DNA of 64,000 bases from Empedobacter falsenii (GTDB taxonomy: Bacteria > Bacteroidota > Bacteroidia > Flavobacteriales > Weeksellaceae). Positions 2,997 through 55,096 of this stretch are shown in pieces. Numbering within the stretch: the stretch's first letter is position 1; each line of letters starts with the position of its first letter. A program made the position numbers and the translations under genes. The notes beneath the pieces were generated by a model. It ran no database searches. It was not told the origin of the DNA and was given only the letters and a program-made list of their open reading frames with translations. The stretch covers positions 905,876-969,875 of the forward strand of contig NZ_CP040908.1 of the NCBI RefSeq assembly GCF_013488205.1, given 5' to 3'.

Positions 2997-5309
2997 ATGA
3001 AATTTTTACAATTAATTCTCATTTTGATTAGTTCTTTTGCTTTTGCACAAGAAAAATATTCGATTACAGGAAATATTTCATCAAAAAATGAGTCAAAAAC
3101 AATTCAAGCAAAAGTTATTTTACACGATGAATTTCAAAATGTTATTCAAACAATTGAAACTGAAAACTCTAAATTTAACTTTGAAAATTTAGAACAAAAA
3201 ATATATTCAATTTCAGTTATTTATGATAATAAAATTCAAGATGAAGAACCTTTTTATTTGAACGAAAATAAAACATTTCACTTAAATATTGATGAAACTG
3301 TACAAATTAATGAAGTTGTAATCAATGGAAAAAAGGAAACTTTCAAAATAGAAAATGGCAATTATAATATTGATGTAGCTAATTCAAATTTTAATAAACT
3401 TGCTACAACCAAAGAATTATTTTCAAAATTACCAAGCGTCATGTTGGGAGCAGATCAAGAAACATTGACAATTATTGGAAAAGGAAATCCTTTGTTGTAT
3501 TTGGACGATCAACAAGTTGATTTTTCTACCATTTCGAGTTTAGCAATTGAGGACATAAAATCGATTGAAATTATTAAAAATCCATCTGCAAAATATGAAG
3601 CAAATGGAAGATCTGTCGTAAAAATTAACCTTAAAAAAAGTAAAAAAGAAGGTTTAAAATTCTCTTTACAGGAAACATTATCGTTCAAAAGAAAGTTCAA
3701 TAATTATTTCAATTCGACTTTTCAAATTCGTAAAAACAAAAGTGAATTTAAATTGAATGCATCTTATAATCAACTAAATCCTTGGGAAGGAAATGGATTC
3801 GATTATCGAGTAAAAGATAAAAATATTCAGTCCAATTATTTCATAAAATCGCAAACAAAGCGTCCGCATTTTATTGTAAATACAAGCTTTTTTCAAGAAT
3901 TAAATGAATCTGGAGATTATCTTTCATTTGCTATTAATTCGAATTTCAGAAAAGATAAAGGTTTGATTGATACCAAAACAGAATATTCAGAAAACAATGA
4001 AAATCAATCTATTTTAACCTTAAATGATAATGAAAATCATCGAAATTTTGTGAATACCTTGATGAATTACAATAAAAATATTCAATCAATTGACGTAAGT
4101 ATTTTAACAGGTTTGCAATACACGATTTATAATACAGGAACGACATACGATTTTTACAATAAGATAAATGAAAATGATATCGAATACAATCAATCGCGCT
4201 ATCAAAAATATCGTCTTAAGGTTTTTGCAGGGAAATTTGATGTAGAGAAAAAGTTTGAATCTGATCAAAAAATTGAATTTGGAGGACGTTTTACACATGC
4301 AAAATCAGAAACAACTAATCAAACGTTTTTTTCTCAAAAATCATCAGAAGAATTTCTTTATAATTTCAAAGAGCTGAATCTTTCCGCTTATTTGCAATAC
4401 ACAAAAAATTATGAAAAATGGAATTATAAAGCCGGATTAAGAACAGAAGCAACTAATTCTAAAGGTTTTGATGAAATAAAACAACTTTCGGATATTGATA
4501 AAAAATACATTGATTGGTTTCCGAATGCAGAAATTAATTACACTTTTGAGAATAAAGATGCGTTGACAATTTATTACAAACGTACAATTGATAGACCGAA
4601 TTACAGCACCCTTTCTTCTGGGAATTTGTACGGAAGTCCTTATATCGAATACAGCGGAAATTTTAATATTTTACCTACTTACACCGATACGTTTTCTGCG
4701 AATTATTCATTGAAAAAATGGAACATGAATGTGACGTATTATCAAAGTAAAAATCCGATGAATTATACGTTGATTTATGATGATGTGAGAAATATTTCAA
4801 CATTTACAACGGTTAATTTTGAAAAAGAAAAAAATATTTCTGTTGGTTTAGATGTTCCGTTCGAATATAAATTTTGGTCAACACAAATTAGTTTATCTAT
4901 GATTTATAGTAAAATAATTGATAAAAAAGCTGTGCTTAAAAAATCTGTTCCGTATATCTATTTATACTCTAATCATAATTTCAAATTGGGAAAAGATTTT
5001 AATTTTATGCTTGATGGATATTGGCTAAGAAAACGAACAGAAGGAATTTATGATCGAAATTCTCAAGTTATCGTTAACCTTGGATTGACCAAATCATACA
5101 AAAACCTTGATTTTTCTATTCGTTTCAATGATTTATTTAAACAAATGAAATTTAGCGAAACATTGAATTATGATAAAATAAGTTCTAAAAACCTATTTTT
5201 AGTCGATTATCAAGAACTATCTGTTGGTGTTAAATATAATTTTGGCCGATTAAATAAAACCATCTCGAAAGAGAATAAAGTAAATGAAGAGGAAGGGAGA
5301 ATTAGGTAA
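2997..5309 (+). CDS. TonB-dependent receptor-like outer-membrane beta-barrel protein
   Basis: Signal peptide, then a carboxypeptidase-regulatory-like N-domain, a plug-like region and a long beta-barrel with a C-terminal aromatic residue. Confidence 0.7.
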   Translation: MKFLQLILILISSFAFAQEKYSITGNISSKNESKTIQAKVILHDEFQNVIQTIETENSKFNFENLEQKIYSISVIYDNKIQDEEPFYLNENKTFHLNIDETVQINEVVINGKKETFKIENGNYNIDVANSNFNKLATTKELFSKLPSVMLGADQETLTIIGKGNPLLYLDDQQVDFSTISSLAIEDIKSIEIIKNPSAKYEANGRSVVKINLKKSKKEGLKFSLQETLSFKRKFNNYFNSTFQIRKNKSEFKLNASYNQLNPWEGNGFDYRVKDKNIQSNYFIKSQTKRPHFIVNTSFFQELNESGDYLSFAINSNFRKDKGLIDTKTEYSENNENQSILTLNDNENHRNFVNTLMNYNKNIQSIDVSILTGLQYTIYNTGTTYDFYNKINENDIEYNQSRYQKYRLKVFAGKFDVEKKFESDQKIEFGGRFTHAKSETTNQTFFSQKSSEEFLYNFKELNLSAYLQYTKNYEKWNYKAGLRTEATNSKGFDEIKQLSDIDKKYIDWFPNAEINYTFENKDALTIYYKRTIDRPNYSTLSSGNLYGSPYIEYSGNFNILPTYTDTFSANYSLKKWNMNVTYYQSKNPMNYTLIYDDVRNISTFTTVNFEKEKNISVGLDVPFEYKFWSTQISLSMIYSKIIDKKAVLKKSVPYIYLYSNHNFKLGKDFNFMLDGYWLRKRTEGIYDRNSQVIVNLGLTKSYKNLDFSIRFNDLFKQMKFSETLNYDKISSKNLFLVDYQELSVGVKYNFGRLNKTISKENKVNEEEGRIR

Positions 5310-11094: not shown

Positions 11095-11165
11095 AGACCC
11101 ATGGTGTAACGGTAGCACATCGGTTTTTGGTGCCGCTAGTTGGGGTTCGAATCCCTGTGGGTCTA
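11095..11165 (+). tRNA. tRNA-Gln (anticodon UUG), copy 1
   Basis: Hand-folded cloverleaf. 7-bp acceptor stem AGACCCA/TGGGTCT, U8, D-loop AACGGTA with A14 and G18G19, anticodon loop UUUUGGU (U33, UUG, G37), T-loop TTCGAAT. CCA is not encoded. Confidence 0.85.
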
Positions 11166-11257: not shown

Positions 11258-11328
11258 AGACCCATGGTGTAACGGTAGCACATCGGTTTTTGGTGCCGCT
11301 AGTTGGGGTTCGAATCCCTGTGGGTCTA
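11258..11328 (+). tRNA. tRNA-Gln (UUG), copy 2, identical to copy 1
   Basis: Exact 71-nt repeat of copy 1. Confidence 0.85.
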
Positions 11329-11368: not shown

Positions 11369-11439
11369 AGACCCATGGTGTAACGGTAGCACATCGGTTT
11401 TTGGTGCCGCTAGTTGGGGTTCGAATCCCTGTGGGTCTA
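11369..11439 (+). tRNA. tRNA-Gln (UUG), copy 3, identical to copy 1
   Basis: Exact 71-nt repeat of copy 1. Confidence 0.85.
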
Positions 11440-31458: not shown

Positions 31459-32546
31459 TTCGTAAACATTGTTTTTAGTTCATTTAACACATTCGATCCG
31501 CCAGAAATTGAGATTTCTCCCACTTTATCAGCAATTTTTTCGATGTATTCCATTTCTTTCAATTTCCATAACGTTTCGTTTTCTTCCATCAATTTCGCAG
31601 TGTTCAACAAGCTTCTTGTCGAAGCAGTTTCCTCACGACGCGTAATCGAATTGGCTTGAGCCGTTTTTTCGGCAATCAAAACGCGGTTCATAATTTCTCT
31701 TATTTCTCCTGGAAGAATAATGTCTTTCATACCTGCGTCAATCAATTTTAGACCAATTTCTTGGAATTGAGCTTGATATTTTTGAATGATATAATTCGTT
31801 ACCGAATTTTTATCCGACATCAAATCATCAAAATTCATGTTTCCAATAAATTCTCTCAAACCTAATTGAATCGCTTGATAAATCATTTTTTCGAAATCTT
31901 TGTTCGATTGATAAGCGTTTAACAAATCAGTAATTTGATAATTTACCATAAAATTGATTCGCAATTGCGCTTTATCTTTTGTCAAAATTTCTTGTCCCGA
32001 AATTTCAATTGTTTGCGGACGCATATCAAAAGAAACCATCGAAATTTTTGTTTCGTTGTTGTAAAATTGGTATTCACCAGCTTTTAAAACCGAATCAAAT
32101 TCATTGTCTTTGAATAAAATTCCTTCGAAATATGGCGCAACAGAAATGATACGAATAGCTCCAGCTTTTCTCAAAATATCAATTTCTCTTTTTGTTAAAT
32201 TTTTAATTTCTTCAGTAGAATTCAACTCAAATTTTACAGCTTTTAATTGAGTTGAATTTTTCCAAATCATCACGTTTTTATTGTAAAATGAATTATAGAT
32301 TTGATTGTTTTTACATATAATTAACACTTCATTGTGTAATACTTCGATAAAATCTACCATCGATTTCAAAGTTTCATTTTCTAAAAACATTGTGTGGTAT
32401 TTTTCATCAATTATTTCGTTGATGTTTAATTTTTCGATGTTTTTATTGAATAAAATCCAATAGTTTCCTTTTGTGTAAACTTTTTCGATTTCGTTGTTTT
32501 TGATATAGATTCCAATTTCTTGGTTGTTAATTGCTAATTTTTTCAT
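31455..32546 (-). CDS. SPFH/band-7 (stomatin-like) domain protein, first gene of the rtcB operon
   Basis: SPFH-like core (QLRINFMVNYQITD ... AEKTAQANSITRREETAS) and a C-terminal coiled region. No TM helix is evident. Confidence 0.55.
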   Translation of the reverse strand: MKKLAINNQEIGIYIKNNEIEKVYTKGNYWILFNKNIEKLNINEIIDEKYHTMFLENETLKSMVDFIEVLHNEVLIICKNNQIYNSFYNKNVMIWKNSTQLKAVKFELNSTEEIKNLTKREIDILRKAGAIRIISVAPYFEGILFKDNEFDSVLKAGEYQFYNNETKISMVSFDMRPQTIEISGQEILTKDKAQLRINFMVNYQITDLLNAYQSNKDFEKMIYQAIQLGLREFIGNMNFDDLMSDKNSVTNYIIQKYQAQFQEIGLKLIDAGMKDIILPGEIREIMNRVLIAEKTAQANSITRREETASTRSLLNTAKLMEENETLWKLKEMEYIEKIADKVGEISISGGSNVLNELKTMFTK

Positions 32547-52626: not shown

Positions 52627-52971
52627 ATGGAAAAAATGGTAAAATTTAATGAACTTGAAAACAAAGTTTTAAGTGTTTTAGGCCAACTTGGGAATTATAA
52701 AGATATATTGAAGGGCGCTGAAAACTCGATACAAGAATTGGAAAAATTGCAAAATGAAATCAATTCTCTAAAAGAAGAAAATGCCCGATTGAAAAATAAA
52801 TTGAGAGATTCGCAAGCGAATAACTTAAATTTAAATGAGGAGGTAAAACGATTAAAAGTCGTTAATGCAATGAGCGGAAATCAGGAGTACAAACAAATGA
52901 TGAAGCAAAGAATGAACAAATTAATAAAAGAAGTCGATACGTGCATCGCTCAAATTAAAACTAATAATTAA
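52627..52971 (+). CDS. coiled-coil protein (possible ZapB-like division protein)
   Basis: 114 aa, entirely heptad-like. Immediately upstream of zapA. Confidence 0.4.
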   Translation: MEKMVKFNELENKVLSVLGQLGNYKDILKGAENSIQELEKLQNEINSLKEENARLKNKLRDSQANNLNLNEEVKRLKVVNAMSGNQEYKQMMKQRMNKLIKEVDTCIAQIKTNN

Positions 52972-52979
52972 TAAAAAGA

Positions 52980-53270
52980 ATGTCAACTCAACGAATTGAG
53001 ATAAAAATTGCTTCACGTCATTATCCAATGACGATTAATTCTGACGAGGAAGAAATGTTACTTTCTTGTGCAGAAGAAATAAATGGTATTTTGAAACAAT
53101 TTGAACAAAAGTACGCTGTTTCTGACAAACAAGACGCGCTTGCAATGGTGACAATTCAGTTAGCTTTACGCGAAGCAAAGCTGAAAAAGCAAGTGAAAGA
53201 TAACGAAGAAATGACTACAGAGCGCATTTCGAAGTTATTAGAATTGATTGATCAGTCAATCGCAAAATAA
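52980..53270 (+). CDS. zapA: cell division protein ZapA
   Basis: 96 aa. The N-terminal pattern (IKIASRHYPMT) is typical of ZapA. Confidence 0.65.
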   Translation: MSTQRIEIKIASRHYPMTINSDEEEMLLSCAEEINGILKQFEQKYAVSDKQDALAMVTIQLALREAKLKKQVKDNEEMTTERISKLLELIDQSIAK

Positions 53271-53312
53271 GAGAAGTTCTGACAGTTGTGAAACTGTCCA
53301 CTAAACAATATT

Positions 53313-53492
53313 CCTACATTAGTTCTAGCTATTTTGGTTAACTCAACACTAGTTTTGTTACCGAGTGAACACCGTTCGGAAAGCGGGCCGCAACCTTTTA
53401 GGTTCATTTATTTGACAGCGGATACTTGATTGACGGACTAACTCAAATCCTGTTTACAGGAGTTAACTCAAAACATACTTTACTAATGTAGG
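53313..53492 (+). ncRNA. ssrS: candidate 6S RNA (ssrS)
   Basis: About 180 nt with perfect 11-bp terminal pairing (CCTACATTAGT/ACTAATGTAGG) and a second stem (GTTAACTC/GAGTTAAC). GC-rich internal hairpins sit in an AT-rich genome, and a T7 tract follows. Located right after zapA, as in the E. coli zapA-ssrS arrangement. Confidence 0.55.
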
Positions 53493-53521
53493 TTTTTTTA
53501 TATATAAACATTACATAATCT

Positions 53522-55096
53522 ATGGACCCAATTATGACAATAATTATTGCAATTGTTACATTAATCATAGGTGCAGCGGTGGGATATTTCTTATCAAAAA
53601 AATCAGTTGATAAACAGAATCAAGAACTGATTGACGAAGCAACTCGCAAAGCACAAAATTTGATTAATGATGCTGAGAAAGATGGTGAAGCCATTAAAAA
53701 AGAGAAAATTTTTCAAGCCAAAGAGAAATTTTTAGAATTAAAATCTAAACACGAAGAAGTTGTTAATCAACGTGAAAGAAAAGTAGCTGATGCTGAGCTT
53801 AAAGTAAAAGAACGTGAAGAGAGAATCAAAACGGACTTAGCAGAAATTCAGAAACAAAAAGATCAGATTAAATCTGAGAAAGGAAATATACAAGCACGTA
53901 CAGAAAAGCTTAATATTAAGCAAAAAGAAGTGGATACGATGCACAAAAAACAAGTAGAAATCCTTGAAAAAATTTCGAATTATTCTGCTGATGAAGCACG
54001 TGCCGAACTGATTGAAGTCTTAAAAGACGAAGCAAGAACTAAAGCACAAGCTCATATCCAAGAAATTATGGAAGAGGCTGAATTAGATGCGAAAAGCGAA
54101 GCGCGTAAAATTGTGATTTCTTCTATTCAACGTATTGGTACAGAGCAAGCTATTGAGAATGCGGTTTCTGTATTTAATATTGAGTCTGACGAAATTAAAG
54201 GACGTATCATTGGTCGTGAAGGACGTAACATTCGTGCAATTGAGGCTGCGACTGGAGTTGAGGTGATTGTTGATGATACGCCAGAAGCGATTATCCTTTC
54301 TTGTTTCGACCCTGTTCGTCGTGAAATTGCTCGTTTGTCTTTGCATCGCTTAGTAACGGACGGACGTATTCACCCAGCACGTATTGAGGAAGTTGTTGCG
54401 AAAACAACAAAACAAATCGAGGACGAAATTATCGAAGTTGGTAAGAAAACAATTTTAGATTTAGGAATTCATGGTTTACACAAAGATTTGGTTCGTATCG
54501 TTGGACGAATGAAATATCGTTCTTCTTATGGTCAAAACTTATTGCAACACTCTCGCGAGGTGGCAAACTTAGCAGGAACGTTGGCTGCGGAATTAGGATT
54601 GAATCCTAAGTTAGCGAAACGTGCAGGTTTATTACACGATATTGGTAAAGTTCCGGAGCAAGAATCTGAATTGCCTCACGCAATTTTGGGTATGCAATGG
54701 GCAGAAAAATATGGGGAACATCCAGATGTAATTAACGCGATTGGAGCTCACCACGACGAAATTGAGATGACTTCTTTAATTTCACCACTTGTACAAGTAG
54801 CCGATGCAATTTCTGGTGCTCGTCCAGGTGCTCGTCGTCAAGTTGTGGAATCGTATATGCAACGTTTAAAAGATTTAGAAGCTACGGCTCTTAACTTTGA
54901 TGGTGTAGAAAAAGCATACGCGATTCAAGCTGGTCGTGAGTTGCGTGTGATTGTAGAAAGTGATAAAGTTGATGATACAAAAGCAGCTGAATTATCGTTC
55001 TTAATTTCAGATAAAATTCAAAACGAAATGACTTATCCAGGTCAAGTTCGTGTAACTGTAATTCGTGAAACGCGTGCAGTAAATATTGCAAGATAA
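53522..55096 (+). CDS. rny: ribonuclease Y
   Basis: N-terminal TM helix, a coiled-coil, a KH domain and an HD domain (HD ... GK motif). Confidence 0.9.

What the first reader, a model, noticed from the sequence alone, without database searches (positions are those of the whole stretch)
53313..53499. Probable 6S RNA between zapA and rny
A segment of about 180 nt has perfectly complementary termini (11 bp) and an inner GTTAACTC/GAGTTAAC helix. GC-rich internal hairpins contrast with the AT-rich surroundings, and a T7 tract follows. It sits immediately after zapA, the conserved position of ssrS in many bacteria. The size and the long closing stem with internal bubbles match the 6S architecture.
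Basis: partly seen in the sequence, partly recalled or inferred. Interest (0 to 1): 0.5.

Follow-up and report, generated by a model that had tools for sequence, protein, structure and literature searches.

The report
6S RNA gene between zapA and rny
This 180-nt stretch is the Weeksellaceae (Empedobacter-type) version of the known 6S RNA, which regulates RNA polymerase; it is an ordinary housekeeping RNA gene that the standard Rfam thresholds fail to annotate.

Summary
Window 53313-53492 (+ strand, 180 nt, then T7 at 53493-53499) lies 42 nt after zapA and 22 nt before rny in an Empedobacter-like genome. No Rfam family reaches its gathering score. A sensitive scan matches both Bacteroidota 6S-type families end to end: 6S-Flavo RF01685 at 52.9 bits (cut-off 85) and Bacteroidales-1 RF01693 at 48.6 bits (cut-off 60), both with E about 1e-7. 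All 80 Flavobacteriales rny loci fetched carry the same RNA at the same place and on the same strand. In Flavobacteriaceae it is the curated 6S-Flavo (85-106 bits). A 76-sequence alignment supports a 6S-shaped rod: closing helix, second helix, an 18/15-nt central bubble and an apical stem. 98.6% of cells are paired (29-43% when partners are slid) and 26 of 32 pairs show compensatory changes. 162 G-U against 3 A-C cells fix the + strand. A model built only from Flavobacteriales detects the experimentally validated Bacteroidales 6S full-length. That RNA sits after rplT, not near rny, so the RNA is not merely an rny leader. Verdict: a new member of a known kind, of modest interest. Open points are its promoter or processing, and whether rny is expressed by read-through.

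The parts
53313..53492 (+). Body of the 6S-type RNA (180 nt), from the first to the last base of the closing helix. True 5' and 3' ends are not mapped.
   Evidence: Model R1 matches 53310-53499 on + at 146.5 bits, against 27.3 bits on -. Rfam sub-threshold matches: RF01685 at 53341-53465 and RF01693 at 53318-53485. Strand: 162 G-U against 3 A-C cells.
53313..53323 (+). Closing helix P1, 5' arm (CCUACAUUAGU); pairs with 53482-53492.
   Evidence: 11 perfect bp. Alignment columns 3-13/221-231: 10 of 11 pairs have compensatory changes and 98.8% of cells are paired.
53482..53492 (+). Closing helix P1, 3' arm (ACUAAUGUAGG).
53324..53336 (+). Internal loop, 5' strand (UCUAGCUAUUUUG). The opposite strand is 53468-53481.
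   Evidence: Unpaired in the consensus structure. UUCUA is conserved within Weeksellaceae.
53337..53344 (+). Helix P2, 5' arm (GUUAACUC); pairs with 53460-53467 (GAGUUAAC). This helix lies on the 'downstream DNA' side of the bubble.
   Evidence: Columns 30-37/190-197: 98.8% of cells paired, 4 pairs with compensatory changes.
53345..53362 (+). Central bubble, 5' strand (18 nt, AACACUAGUUUUGUUACC). By analogy with other 6S RNAs this is the presumed template region for product RNA (inferred).
   Evidence: Unpaired in the consensus. U-C-A-A-C at 53343-53347 is invariant in all 76 sequences.
53363..53444 (+). Apical domain: helices 3-6 (GAGU 53363-66/ACUC 53441-44; GUU 53374-76/GAC 53432-34; AA 53381-82/UU 53426-27; CCGC 53388-91/GCGG 53418-21). 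It also holds a lineage-specific terminal extension at 53392-53417 containing the AACCU/AGGUU hairpin.
   Evidence: Helices 3-6: 97.9-99.3% of cells paired and 12 of 13 pairs with compensatory changes. The extension corresponds to the 25-nt insertion relative to the RF01685 model.
53445..53459 (+). Central bubble, 3' strand (15 nt, AAAUCCUGUUUACAG). Includes a small CCUG/CAGG hairpin that is not conserved outside close relatives.
   Evidence: Unpaired in the consensus. The A-A at 53446-53447 is invariant. The MFE fold shows the mini-hairpin.
53460..53467 (+). Helix P2, 3' arm (GAGUUAAC). It can alternatively pair with UAACUC 53439-53444 (possible release hairpin, inferred).
   Evidence: for P2. 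For the alternative helix, 79% of cells are paired against 11-57% when slid, but there is no covariation.
53493..53499 (+). T7 run immediately after the closing helix. Together with P1 it looks like an intrinsic terminator (inferred).
   Evidence: A T5-T10 run (one with a leading C) follows the 3' arm in all 76 sequences, the window included, found by the stem scan. The simple terminator scan does not call it because the 'loop' is 158 nt.
53271..53298 (+). Segment upstream of the RNA: a conserved GAGAAGUUCU block (53271-53280) directly after the zapA stop, then the hairpin GACAGUU-GUGA-AACUGUC (53281-53298). Role unknown; it may be a processing signal, a stabiliser or a terminator.
   Evidence: Hairpins of different sequence occupy this position across Weeksellaceae (window z -2.7). 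There is no sigma-A -7 box at a fixed offset.
52980..53270 (+). zapA (96 aa).
   Evidence: Pfam PF05164, E 5.6e-15. Found upstream of the RNA in 77 of 80 loci.
52627..52971 (+). 114-aa coiled-coil protein gene upstream of zapA. It occupies a ZapB-like position but has no curated family.
   Evidence: Only generic coiled-coil matches below cut-off. Conserved upstream of zapA in 74 of 80 loci.
53522..55096 (+). rny (RNase Y, 524 aa); starts 22 nt after the T-run.
   Evidence: TIGR03319, 637 bits. Pfam RNase_Y_N + KH + HD.

Best explanation
The element is the 6S RNA gene (ssrS-type) of an Empedobacter-like Weeksellaceae genome. It is transcribed on the + strand between zapA and rny.

Shown here:
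- It is a conserved structured RNA of about 180 nt.
- It folds into a rod: an 11-bp closing helix, an internal loop, an 8-bp second helix, a large central bubble (18 nt on the 5' side, 15 nt on the 3' side) and an apical stem.
- It is homologous to the 6S-Flavo and Bacteroidales-1 RNAs.

Inferred from what is established for 6S RNAs (E. coli, B. subtilis, and B. thetaiotaomicron for this phylum):
- The bubble flanked by helices mimics an open promoter.
- The RNA occupies the active site of the sigma-A RNA polymerase holoenzyme and sequesters it as cells leave exponential growth.
- On outgrowth the polymerase uses the 5' bubble strand as template for a short product RNA. This unwinds helix P2.
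- The freed GAGUUA strand can then pair with the second UAACUC copy, collapsing the bubble and releasing the polymerase.

Biogenesis (also inferred). No recognisable sigma-A promoter lies in the 42-nt gap after zapA, so the RNA is probably made from a longer zapA-containing or zapA-internal transcript and trimmed, as in E. coli. The closing helix plus U-run probably ends most transcripts, and read-through probably supplies rny.
For: 1. Rfam: full-length + strand matches to RF01685 (52.9 bits, E 1.1e-7, model 1-108) and RF01693 (48.6 bits, E 5.4e-7, model 1-179).
2. Positional orthology: in Salinimicrobium, Tenacibaculum and Flavobacterium the curated 6S-Flavo passes gathering (106, 99 and 85 bits) at the identical position directly upstream of rny. 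The same terminal-helix + T-run architecture is found in 75 of 80 loci by a stem scan. Model R1 recovers the other five, giving 80 of 80.
3. Structure: RNAalifold gives the rod-and-bubble layout. Of 32 pairs, 98.6% of cells are paired against 29-43% when slid, 26 pairs have double-sided changes, and 0 of 500 shuffles reach the observed values.
4. Strand: 162 G-U against 3 A-C cells; R1 scores 146.5 bits on + and 27.3 on -.
5. Homology to a validated 6S: R1 contains no Bacteroidales sequence, yet it matches RF01693 RNAs (134-208 bits to their own family) over model positions 1-170 at 40-65 bits, E down to 2e-11, including the closing helix and U-tail. The B. thetaiotaomicron member was validated with product RNAs (PMC7366714). 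The S. copri member accumulates in stationary phase (10.1101/2024.04.05.588293). F. psychrophilum 6S-Flavo (Rfp82) is expressed and rises into stationary phase (PMC9723704, supplementary files 1 and 9).
6. Not tied to rny: 0 of 80 Bacteroidales-type loci have rny or zapA nearby. In L089 the RNA follows thrS-infC-rpmI-rplT and faces a convergent gene.
7. Single copy in the window, and invariant unpaired bases at the bubble edges.
Against: - It fails the curated gathering score of every Rfam 6S-type family, and the general 6S model RF00013 gives nothing at E<=10.
- There is no expression data for this organism or for any Weeksellaceae; no paper in the library links 6S RNA with these genera.
- No sigma-A promoter consensus is found upstream, so independent transcription is unproven.
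- RNA polymerase binding and product-RNA synthesis are inferred from homologs, not tested.
- The proposed release hairpin shows pairing potential but no covariation.
- 6S-Flavo itself was assigned as a 6S RNA by comparative prediction (PMC2864571). The direct biochemical evidence in this phylum is for the Bacteroidales branch.
Confidence: 0.88

Rival explanations
1. The element is primarily a cis-acting 5' leader or attenuator of rny. The closing helix plus U-run would act as a regulated terminator that sets RNase Y expression, and the RNA would have no trans function.
For: - rny starts 13-30 nt after the T-run in most loci, with no sigma-A -7 box conserved in or after the RNA 3' end.
- RNA-rny adjacency holds in 80 of 80 Flavobacteriales loci.
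- A T-run directly follows the helix in all of them.
Against: - The full-length homolog in Bacteroidales is not next to rny (0 of 80). It sits at the 3' end of the rplT operon facing a convergent gene, so the conserved structure cannot be an rny leader there.
- That homolog is a validated 6S RNA with product RNAs (PMC7366714).
- F. psychrophilum 6S-Flavo is among the four known RNAs whose expression was detected, and it rises in stationary phase (PMC9723704).
- Invariant unpaired bubble nucleotides are not needed for a terminator.
- A secondary role as a leaky terminator in front of rny remains compatible with the 6S reading.
Confidence: 0.06
2. The element is a 3' UTR structure or terminator of the coiled-coil-gene/zapA operon. 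It would be a stable by-product without RNA polymerase-binding activity.
For: - It lies 42 nt after zapA on the same strand with no promoter consensus in between.
- It ends in a helix + U-run.
Against: - A 180-nt element with six covarying helices and invariant loop bases conserved across two orders far exceeds what termination requires.
- The Bacteroidales homolog follows a different operon.
- Being derived from a zapA transcript is how E. coli 6S RNA is made and does not conflict with 6S function.
Confidence: 0.04
3. The element is a chance inverted repeat in AT-rich intergenic DNA with no function.
For: About 6 perfect 11-mer inverted pairs at this spacing are expected by chance in the window, and 3 are seen.
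Against: - The fold has z -3.8.
- It is conserved in 80 of 80 loci with 26 covarying pairs.
- It gives significant matches to two Rfam families.
Confidence: 0.01

Closest known systems
6S-Flavo RNA (Rfam RF01685; Weinberg et al. 2010, PMC2864571)
   Same: - Same genomic slot (zapA - RNA - rny) and same strand.
- Same core sequence blocks: ACUCAAC ... GCnnGCC ... GGAU ... CAAAUC/CUAAAC ... GGAGUU.
- Same apical helices.
- Alignable without breaks with threshold-passing members.
- Full model coverage, positions 1-108.
   Different: - It scores 52.9 bits against the cut-off of 85. All ten Weeksellaceae loci tested in sensitive mode score 42-58 bits, and all seventeen Weeksellaceae loci scanned at gathering lack a hit.
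- It has a 25-nt extension of the apical stem (53392-53417).
- Helix 3 and helix 5 sequences have switched by compensatory change.
- The Rfam model covers only the central 108 nt. It omits the closing helix P1 and treats the P2 strands as unpaired, although both helices covary in Flavobacteriaceae too.
Bacteroidales-1 / Bacteroides 6S RNA (Rfam RF01693; validated in B. thetaiotaomicron, PMC7366714; S. copri preprint 10.1101/2024.04.05.588293)
   Same: - Same length class (~180 nt).
- Same closing helix followed by a U-run, and the same bubble-edge motifs (AACUCA..; CUCAAAUCnUGU; GGAGUU).
- Reciprocal cross-detection: RF01693 matches the window at 48.6 bits, and the Flavobacteriales-only model R1 matches RF01693 RNAs full-length at 40-65 bits.
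   Different: - Below the RF01693 cut-off of 60. The closest is Weeksella L006 at 59.5 bits.
- Different genomic context: after thrS-infC-rpmI-rplT, never near zapA or rny.
- GC 0.47 against 0.39.
E. coli 6S RNA (ssrS; Rfam RF00013)
   Same: - Size (183 nt against 180 nt).
- Rod with closing stem, central bubble and apical stem.
- Gene sits immediately downstream of zapA on the same strand, with a gap of 41 nt against 42 nt.
- Followed closely by a co-oriented protein gene.
   Different: - No detectable sequence or profile similarity (no RF00013 match at E<=10).
- The downstream gene is fau/ygfA rather than rny.
- The E. coli 3' end is made by processing and Rho-dependent termination (cited in PMC7641849), whereas a U-run follows the helix here.

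Membership tests
Rfam RF01685 6S-Flavo | Score at or above the curated gathering threshold (85 bits) | tested here: not met
   52.9 bits, E 1.1e-7; not listed at gathering.
Rfam RF01685 6S-Flavo | Full-length match to the model consensus and its helices | tested here: met
   Model positions 1-108 aligned, all helices formed, one 25-nt insertion in the terminal loop.
Rfam RF01685 6S-Flavo | Orthology with accepted members (same locus, continuous alignment) | tested here: met
   Threshold-passing members L059, L066 and L074 lie at the same position upstream of rny. They align with the window throughout. One model, R1, covers all 80 loci.
Rfam RF01693 Bacteroidales-1 (Bacteroidales 6S) | Score at or above the curated gathering threshold (60 bits) | tested here: not met
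   48.6 bits, E 5.4e-7, model 1-179.
Rfam RF01693 Bacteroidales-1 (Bacteroidales 6S) | Location downstream of rplT (seen in L089; the wider pattern is from my memory of Weinberg 2010 and was not re-read) | tested here: not met
   The window RNA follows zapA. The Bacteroidales locus L089 follows rplT, and 0 of 80 Bacteroidales loci have zapA or rny nearby.
Rfam RF00013 6S/SsrS | Any match to the general 6S covariance model | tested here: not met
   No RF00013 match at E<=10 in 53150-53650.
6S RNA (functional class) | Length of about 150-200 nt | tested here: met
   180 nt between the helix ends; 152-205 nt across 76 sequences (75 loci plus the window). The true ends are unmapped.
6S RNA (functional class) | Extended rod with closing stem, large central bubble and apical stem, supported by covariation | tested here: met
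   six helices, 26 of 32 pairs compensatory, bubble of 18 + 15 nt.
6S RNA (functional class) | Binds the housekeeping sigma-RNA polymerase holoenzyme | not testable with these tools
   Needs a pull-down or gel shift.
6S RNA (functional class) | Serves as template for product RNAs that trigger release | not testable with these tools
   Product RNAs are reported only for the B. thetaiotaomicron homolog (PMC7366714). A possible release hairpin is compatible but not supported by covariation.
6S RNA (functional class) | Abundant discrete transcript that accumulates towards stationary phase | not testable with these tools
   Reported for F. psychrophilum 6S-Flavo (PMC9723704 supplement) and for S. 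copri. No data exist for Weeksellaceae.

The most novel reading that the evidence does not exclude
The coiled-coil gene -> zapA -> 6S RNA order, with the same ~40-nt zapA-6S spacing, is shared between Flavobacteriales and beta/gamma-proteobacteria (where it is ZapB -> ZapA -> SsrS). In Flavobacteriales the 6S closing helix + U-run is the only element separating the RNA from rny. The most novel reading is that this is one functional transcription unit: a cell-division factor, the polymerase-sequestering RNA and the main mRNA-decay endonuclease are co-expressed. The 6S gene would double as a leaky terminator that sets RNase Y levels, and RNase Y might help to mature 6S. The zapA-6S linkage would then be either ancient or convergently selected across phyla.
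Probability: 0.2. Interest if true: 0.55.

Novelty: new member of a known kind. Interest (0 to 1): 0.3.

Why it matters
**Annotation.** In every Weeksellaceae locus tested, the 6S RNA scores 42-58 bits, below the Rfam cut-off of 85. The family includes Empedobacter, Chryseobacterium, Weeksella and Bergeyella, which contain clinical and veterinary pathogens. Pipelines that apply Rfam gathering scores would therefore leave the 6S RNA unannotated there, making this ubiquitous regulator look absent.

**Model repair.** The data here give a full-length model of 170 positions and 32 pairs. It adds the two outer helices missing from RF01685. It also shows that RF01685 and RF01693 are one homologous family and could be merged or placed in a clan.

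**Biology.** The element itself is expected. The invariable 6S-rny adjacency and the zapA-6S order shared with proteobacteria are small but testable leads on how 6S RNA is made and why it sits where it does.

Tried and rejected
- **Whole-window Rfam scan at gathering.** It found only four tRNAs. Taken alone this would have wrongly refuted the finding. The sensitive scan of 501 nt was needed.
- **Strand from folding energy.** Uninformative: z -3.8 on + and -4.5 on -. The strand was settled by G-U/A-C asymmetry and the covariance model.
- **First regex for the core motif.** Too strict; it found 13 of 80 loci. It was replaced by a stem + T-run scan and a covariance model.
- **Sigma-70-type promoter scan and a search for the Bacteroidota TAnnTTTG -7 box upstream of the RNA and upstream of rny.** No conserved promoter at a fixed offset. 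The only near-match is TAGGTTTT at the arm/T-run junction (26 loci), and it has no -33 element at the right spacing in the window or in the one Chryseobacterium locus inspected by eye.
- **Looking up a mapped TSS for F. psychrophilum 6S in the supplements of PMC9723704.** The stored tables are truncated before that coordinate.
- **Wehner et al. 2014 on 6S dissemination (PMC4615782).** Not held in the library.
- **Release-hairpin test.** A first attempt used the wrong register. The corrected test shows pairing potential without covariation, so it is kept only as an inference.
- **Assigning the 114-aa coiled-coil protein to ZapB.** No curated family supports this.
- **The weak BTnc049 match over the upstream hairpin (E 0.9).** Treated as chance.

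Full report
**What is in the sequence.** Window 53313-53492 (+ strand) is bounded by CCTACATTAGT (53313-53323) and its perfect complement ACTAATGTAGG (53482-53492). It contains the inner pair GTTAACTC (53337-53344) / GAGTTAAC (53460-53467) and is followed by T7 (53493-53499). The upstream ORF 52980-53270 is ZapA (Pfam PF05164, E 5.6e-15). The downstream ORF 53522-55096 is RNase Y (RNase_Y_N + KH + HD; TIGR03319, 637 bits). A 114-aa coiled-coil ORF (52627-52971) precedes zapA.

The element is moderately GC-enriched: 0.39 overall and 0.48 in its apical part, against 0.31 for the window. The 11-bp terminal complementarity is not remarkable on its own. Base composition predicts about 6.4 such pairs at 120-220 nt spacing in 64 kb, and 3 occur; the other two are inside long ORFs. 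The whole element does fold better than shuffles (z -3.8, 0 of 200), but so does the opposite strand (z -4.5), so folding alone fixes neither function nor strand.

At Rfam gathering thresholds the 64-kb window yields only four tRNAs. A sensitive scan of 53150-53650 gives two significant full-length matches on the + strand:
- 6S-Flavo RF01685 at 53341-53465: 52.9 bits (cut-off 85), E 1.1e-7, model 1-108, with a 25-nt insertion in the terminal loop.
- Bacteroidales-1 RF01693 at 53318-53485: 48.6 bits (cut-off 60), E 5.4e-7, model 1-179.

The general 6S model RF00013 gives nothing at E<=10.

**Relatives.** I used RNase Y as an anchor chosen independently of the RNA and fetched 80 loci from distinct species. 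The window is Empedobacter-like, with Rny 98% identical to E. brevis and E. stercoris. The set spans Weeksellaceae (L001-L058) and Flavobacteriaceae (L059-L080).
- At gathering, RF01685 is found only in Flavobacteriaceae: Salinimicrobium 106 bits, Tenacibaculum 99, Flavobacterium 85. Each hit lies directly upstream of rny on the same strand. No Weeksellaceae locus passes.
- In sensitive mode, all ten Weeksellaceae loci tested score 42-58 bits for RF01685. Several also score 40-59.5 bits for RF01693.
- A scan for a terminal helix of at least 8 bp followed by a T-run finds the same architecture in 75 of 80 loci: 11-16 bp helix, 152-205 nt element, 13-176 nt before rny.
- A covariance model built from these (R1, 170 positions, 32 pairs) recovers the other five, two of them cut by contig ends, giving 80 of 80.
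- R1 matches the window once: 53310-53499 on +, 146.5 bits, against 27.3 bits on the - strand.
- zapA lies upstream in 77 of 80 loci and the coiled-coil gene in 74 of 80.

**Structure.** The 76-sequence alignment A1 gives an RNAalifold consensus with these parts:
- closing helix P1 (11 pairs);
- an internal loop;
- helix P2 (8 pairs);
- a central bubble, 18 nt on the 5' side (53345-53362) and 15 nt on the 3' side (53445-53459);
- an apical domain of four short helices with a variable tip.

Counting on 71 distinct rows shows 98.6% of cells form standard pairs, against 29-43% when partners are slid by 1-3 columns. 26 of 32 pairs have changes on both sides (5-8 when slid). The covariation score is 0.50, against 0.04-0.08 when slid and 0.22 when shuffled. 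None of 500 shuffles reaches any observed measure.

There are 162 G-U cells and 3 A-C cells, so the RNA is read from the + strand. Unpaired bases at the bubble edges are invariant in all 76 sequences: UCAAC at 53343-53347, AA at 53446-53447 and GA at 53460-53461. That is expected for protein-contacting positions and is not needed for a mere terminator.

**Link to experimentally characterised 6S RNAs.**
- 6S-Flavo was proposed as a 6S RNA by comparative analysis (PMC2864571).
- In F. psychrophilum it is detected as a transcript (Rfp82) that rises from exponential to stationary phase (PMC9723704 and supplements).
- Bacteroidales-1 was identified as the B. thetaiotaomicron 6S RNA, with product RNAs observed (PMC7366714).
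- In S. copri it accumulates in stationary phase on northern blots.

To connect the window to that branch directly, I searched metagenome contigs with a pattern taken from the RF01693 consensus. Five of those loci score 134-208 bits for RF01693. Model R1 contains no Bacteroidales sequence, yet it matches ten of ten such loci over model positions 1-170 at 40-65 bits (E 2.6e-6 to 2e-11), aligning the closing helix and the U-tail as well. The two Rfam families and the window RNA are therefore one homologous family.

**Is it only an rny leader?** Several facts favour some coupling. rny begins 13-30 nt after the T-run in most lineages. No Bacteroidota sigma-A -7 box (TAnnTTTG) is conserved inside the 3' part of the RNA or in the gap; there is only a one-mismatch TAGGTTTT at the arm/T-run junction in 26 loci. 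In the window and in the one Chryseobacterium locus I inspected, no -33 element sits at a suitable distance from it. rny thus probably depends on transcription passing through the RNA gene.

The conserved RNA itself is not tied to rny, however. None of 80 Bacteroidales-type loci carries rny or zapA. In L089 the RNA follows thrS-infC-rpmI-rplT and faces a convergent AMP-binding enzyme gene, so it cannot be a 5' leader there. The best reading is a trans-acting 6S RNA that, in Flavobacteriales, also sits in front of rny. This resembles E. coli ssrS, which sits in front of fau/ygfA and is co-transcribed with it (PMC7641849, citing Chae 2011).

**Mechanism (inferred).**
1. By homology and architecture, the RNA should mimic an open promoter and sequester the sigma-A holoenzyme.
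2. Product-RNA synthesis templated by the 5' bubble strand would proceed into P2 (GGUUAACUC).
3. The released GAGUUA (53460-53465) can then pair with a second UAACUC copy (53439-53444), which in the ground state forms the base of the apical stem.
4. This would collapse the bubble, as described for the E. coli and B. subtilis 6S RNAs (from my own knowledge of that literature, not re-read here).

Across the alignment this alternative helix is 79% paired, against 11-57% when slid, but it shows no compensatory change. It is compatible with the data, not demonstrated.

**Biogenesis (open).** The zapA stop and the RNA 5' end are only about 26-67 nt apart, and no TAnnTTTG box sits at a fixed offset upstream. 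Two other features are conserved there:
- a GTTCT block directly after the zapA stop (window GAGAAGTTCT 53271-53280), also present in Flavobacteriaceae but at variable distance from the RNA;
- in Weeksellaceae only, a hairpin of changing sequence (window 53281-53298). Its z is -1.4 to -4.7 in Weeksellaceae, about 0 in Flavobacteriaceae, and the coding-region control median is -0.05.

Processing from a zapA-containing precursor seems more likely than a dedicated canonical promoter, but nothing here proves it.

**Comparison and novelty.** In E. coli K-12, ssrS starts 41 nt after zapA; here the gap is 42 nt. ZapB -> ZapA -> SsrS is reported as ancestral to beta- and gamma-proteobacteria (PMC7641849) and is seen in Cupriavidus. 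The Flavobacteriales order coiled-coil gene -> zapA -> 6S parallels it. The coiled-coil protein has no curated ZapB assignment, and I could not survey other Bacteroidota orders.

No paper in the searched library connects 6S RNA with any Weeksellaceae genus. The element is therefore a new member of a known kind. It is a correctly guessed 6S RNA that falls below Rfam thresholds because RF01685 is a 108-nt partial model with a high cut-off. Interest is modest. The useful outputs are a full-length structure, the unification of RF01685 and RF01693, and the conserved zapA-6S-rny arrangement.

Noticed in passing
window 53271-53298; L001-L058 at the equivalent position: Between the zapA stop and the RNA 5' end there is a conserved GTTCT block, and in Weeksellaceae only a hairpin whose sequence changes while pairing is kept. 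Examples: window GACAGTT/AACTGTC, L006 TTGCAC/GTGCAA, L048 GGAAAAG/CTTTTCC, L043 GGAGA/TCTCC. No sigma-A promoter consensus is present. It may be a processing signal, an mRNA-end stabiliser or a terminator.
   Followed up: partly
window 52627-53492; E. coli NC_000913 3055612-3056165 (L081): The order coiled-coil gene -> zapA -> 6S RNA mirrors the ZapB -> ZapA -> SsrS array described for beta/gamma-proteobacteria. The zapA-to-6S gap is 42 nt here and 41 nt in E. coli. The 114-aa coiled-coil protein matches no curated family. The linkage is absent in Bacteroidales, where 6S follows rplT.
   Followed up: partly
L014-L061 (Chryseobacterium and relatives), 10-30 nt upstream of the rny start; L062 likewise: The short rny leader carries a conserved ACAATTAAAACTCAATATA block (L062: TAACTCAAC). 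It repeats the AAACUCAA motif of the 6S P2/bubble junction and could pair with GGAGUUU of the RNA in read-through transcripts. The block is absent from the window's own 22-nt gap.
   Followed up: no
Rfam RF01685 versus alignment A1 (all loci): The curated 6S-Flavo model covers only the central 108 nt and marks the P2 strands as unpaired. The outer 11-bp and 8-bp helices covary in Flavobacteriaceae as well. With a cut-off of 85 bits the model missed every Weeksellaceae locus scanned: 17 at gathering, and 42-58 bits in the 10 scored. Flavobacterium L074 passes by only 0.2 bits.
   Followed up: yes
window 11095-11165, 11258-11328, 11369-11439 (+): Three tRNA genes lie within 345 nt. All three have the same 71-nt sequence in the printed alignments and the same score (55.5 bits each).
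   Followed up: no
window 53339-53346, 53439-53446, 53464-53471: The octamer TAACTCAA occurs three times within the 180-nt RNA: the P2 5' arm, the base of the apical stem, and just after the P2 3' arm. The first two can each pair with GAGUUA. The role of the third copy is unexplained.
   Followed up: partly
window 3869-4077 and 31740-31959: Two other perfect 11-mer inverted pairs occur at similar spacing. Both are AT-only and lie inside long ORFs (770 aa on +, 363 aa on -). The second folds somewhat better than shuffles (z -2.4). They are probably chance.
   Followed up: partly
L013 5360-5438 (-); L059 4865-4897 (-): Rfam gathering-level matches to Flavo-1 RNA (52.1 bits) and DUF805b RNA (43.3 bits) lie downstream of rny in two related loci.
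   Followed up: no
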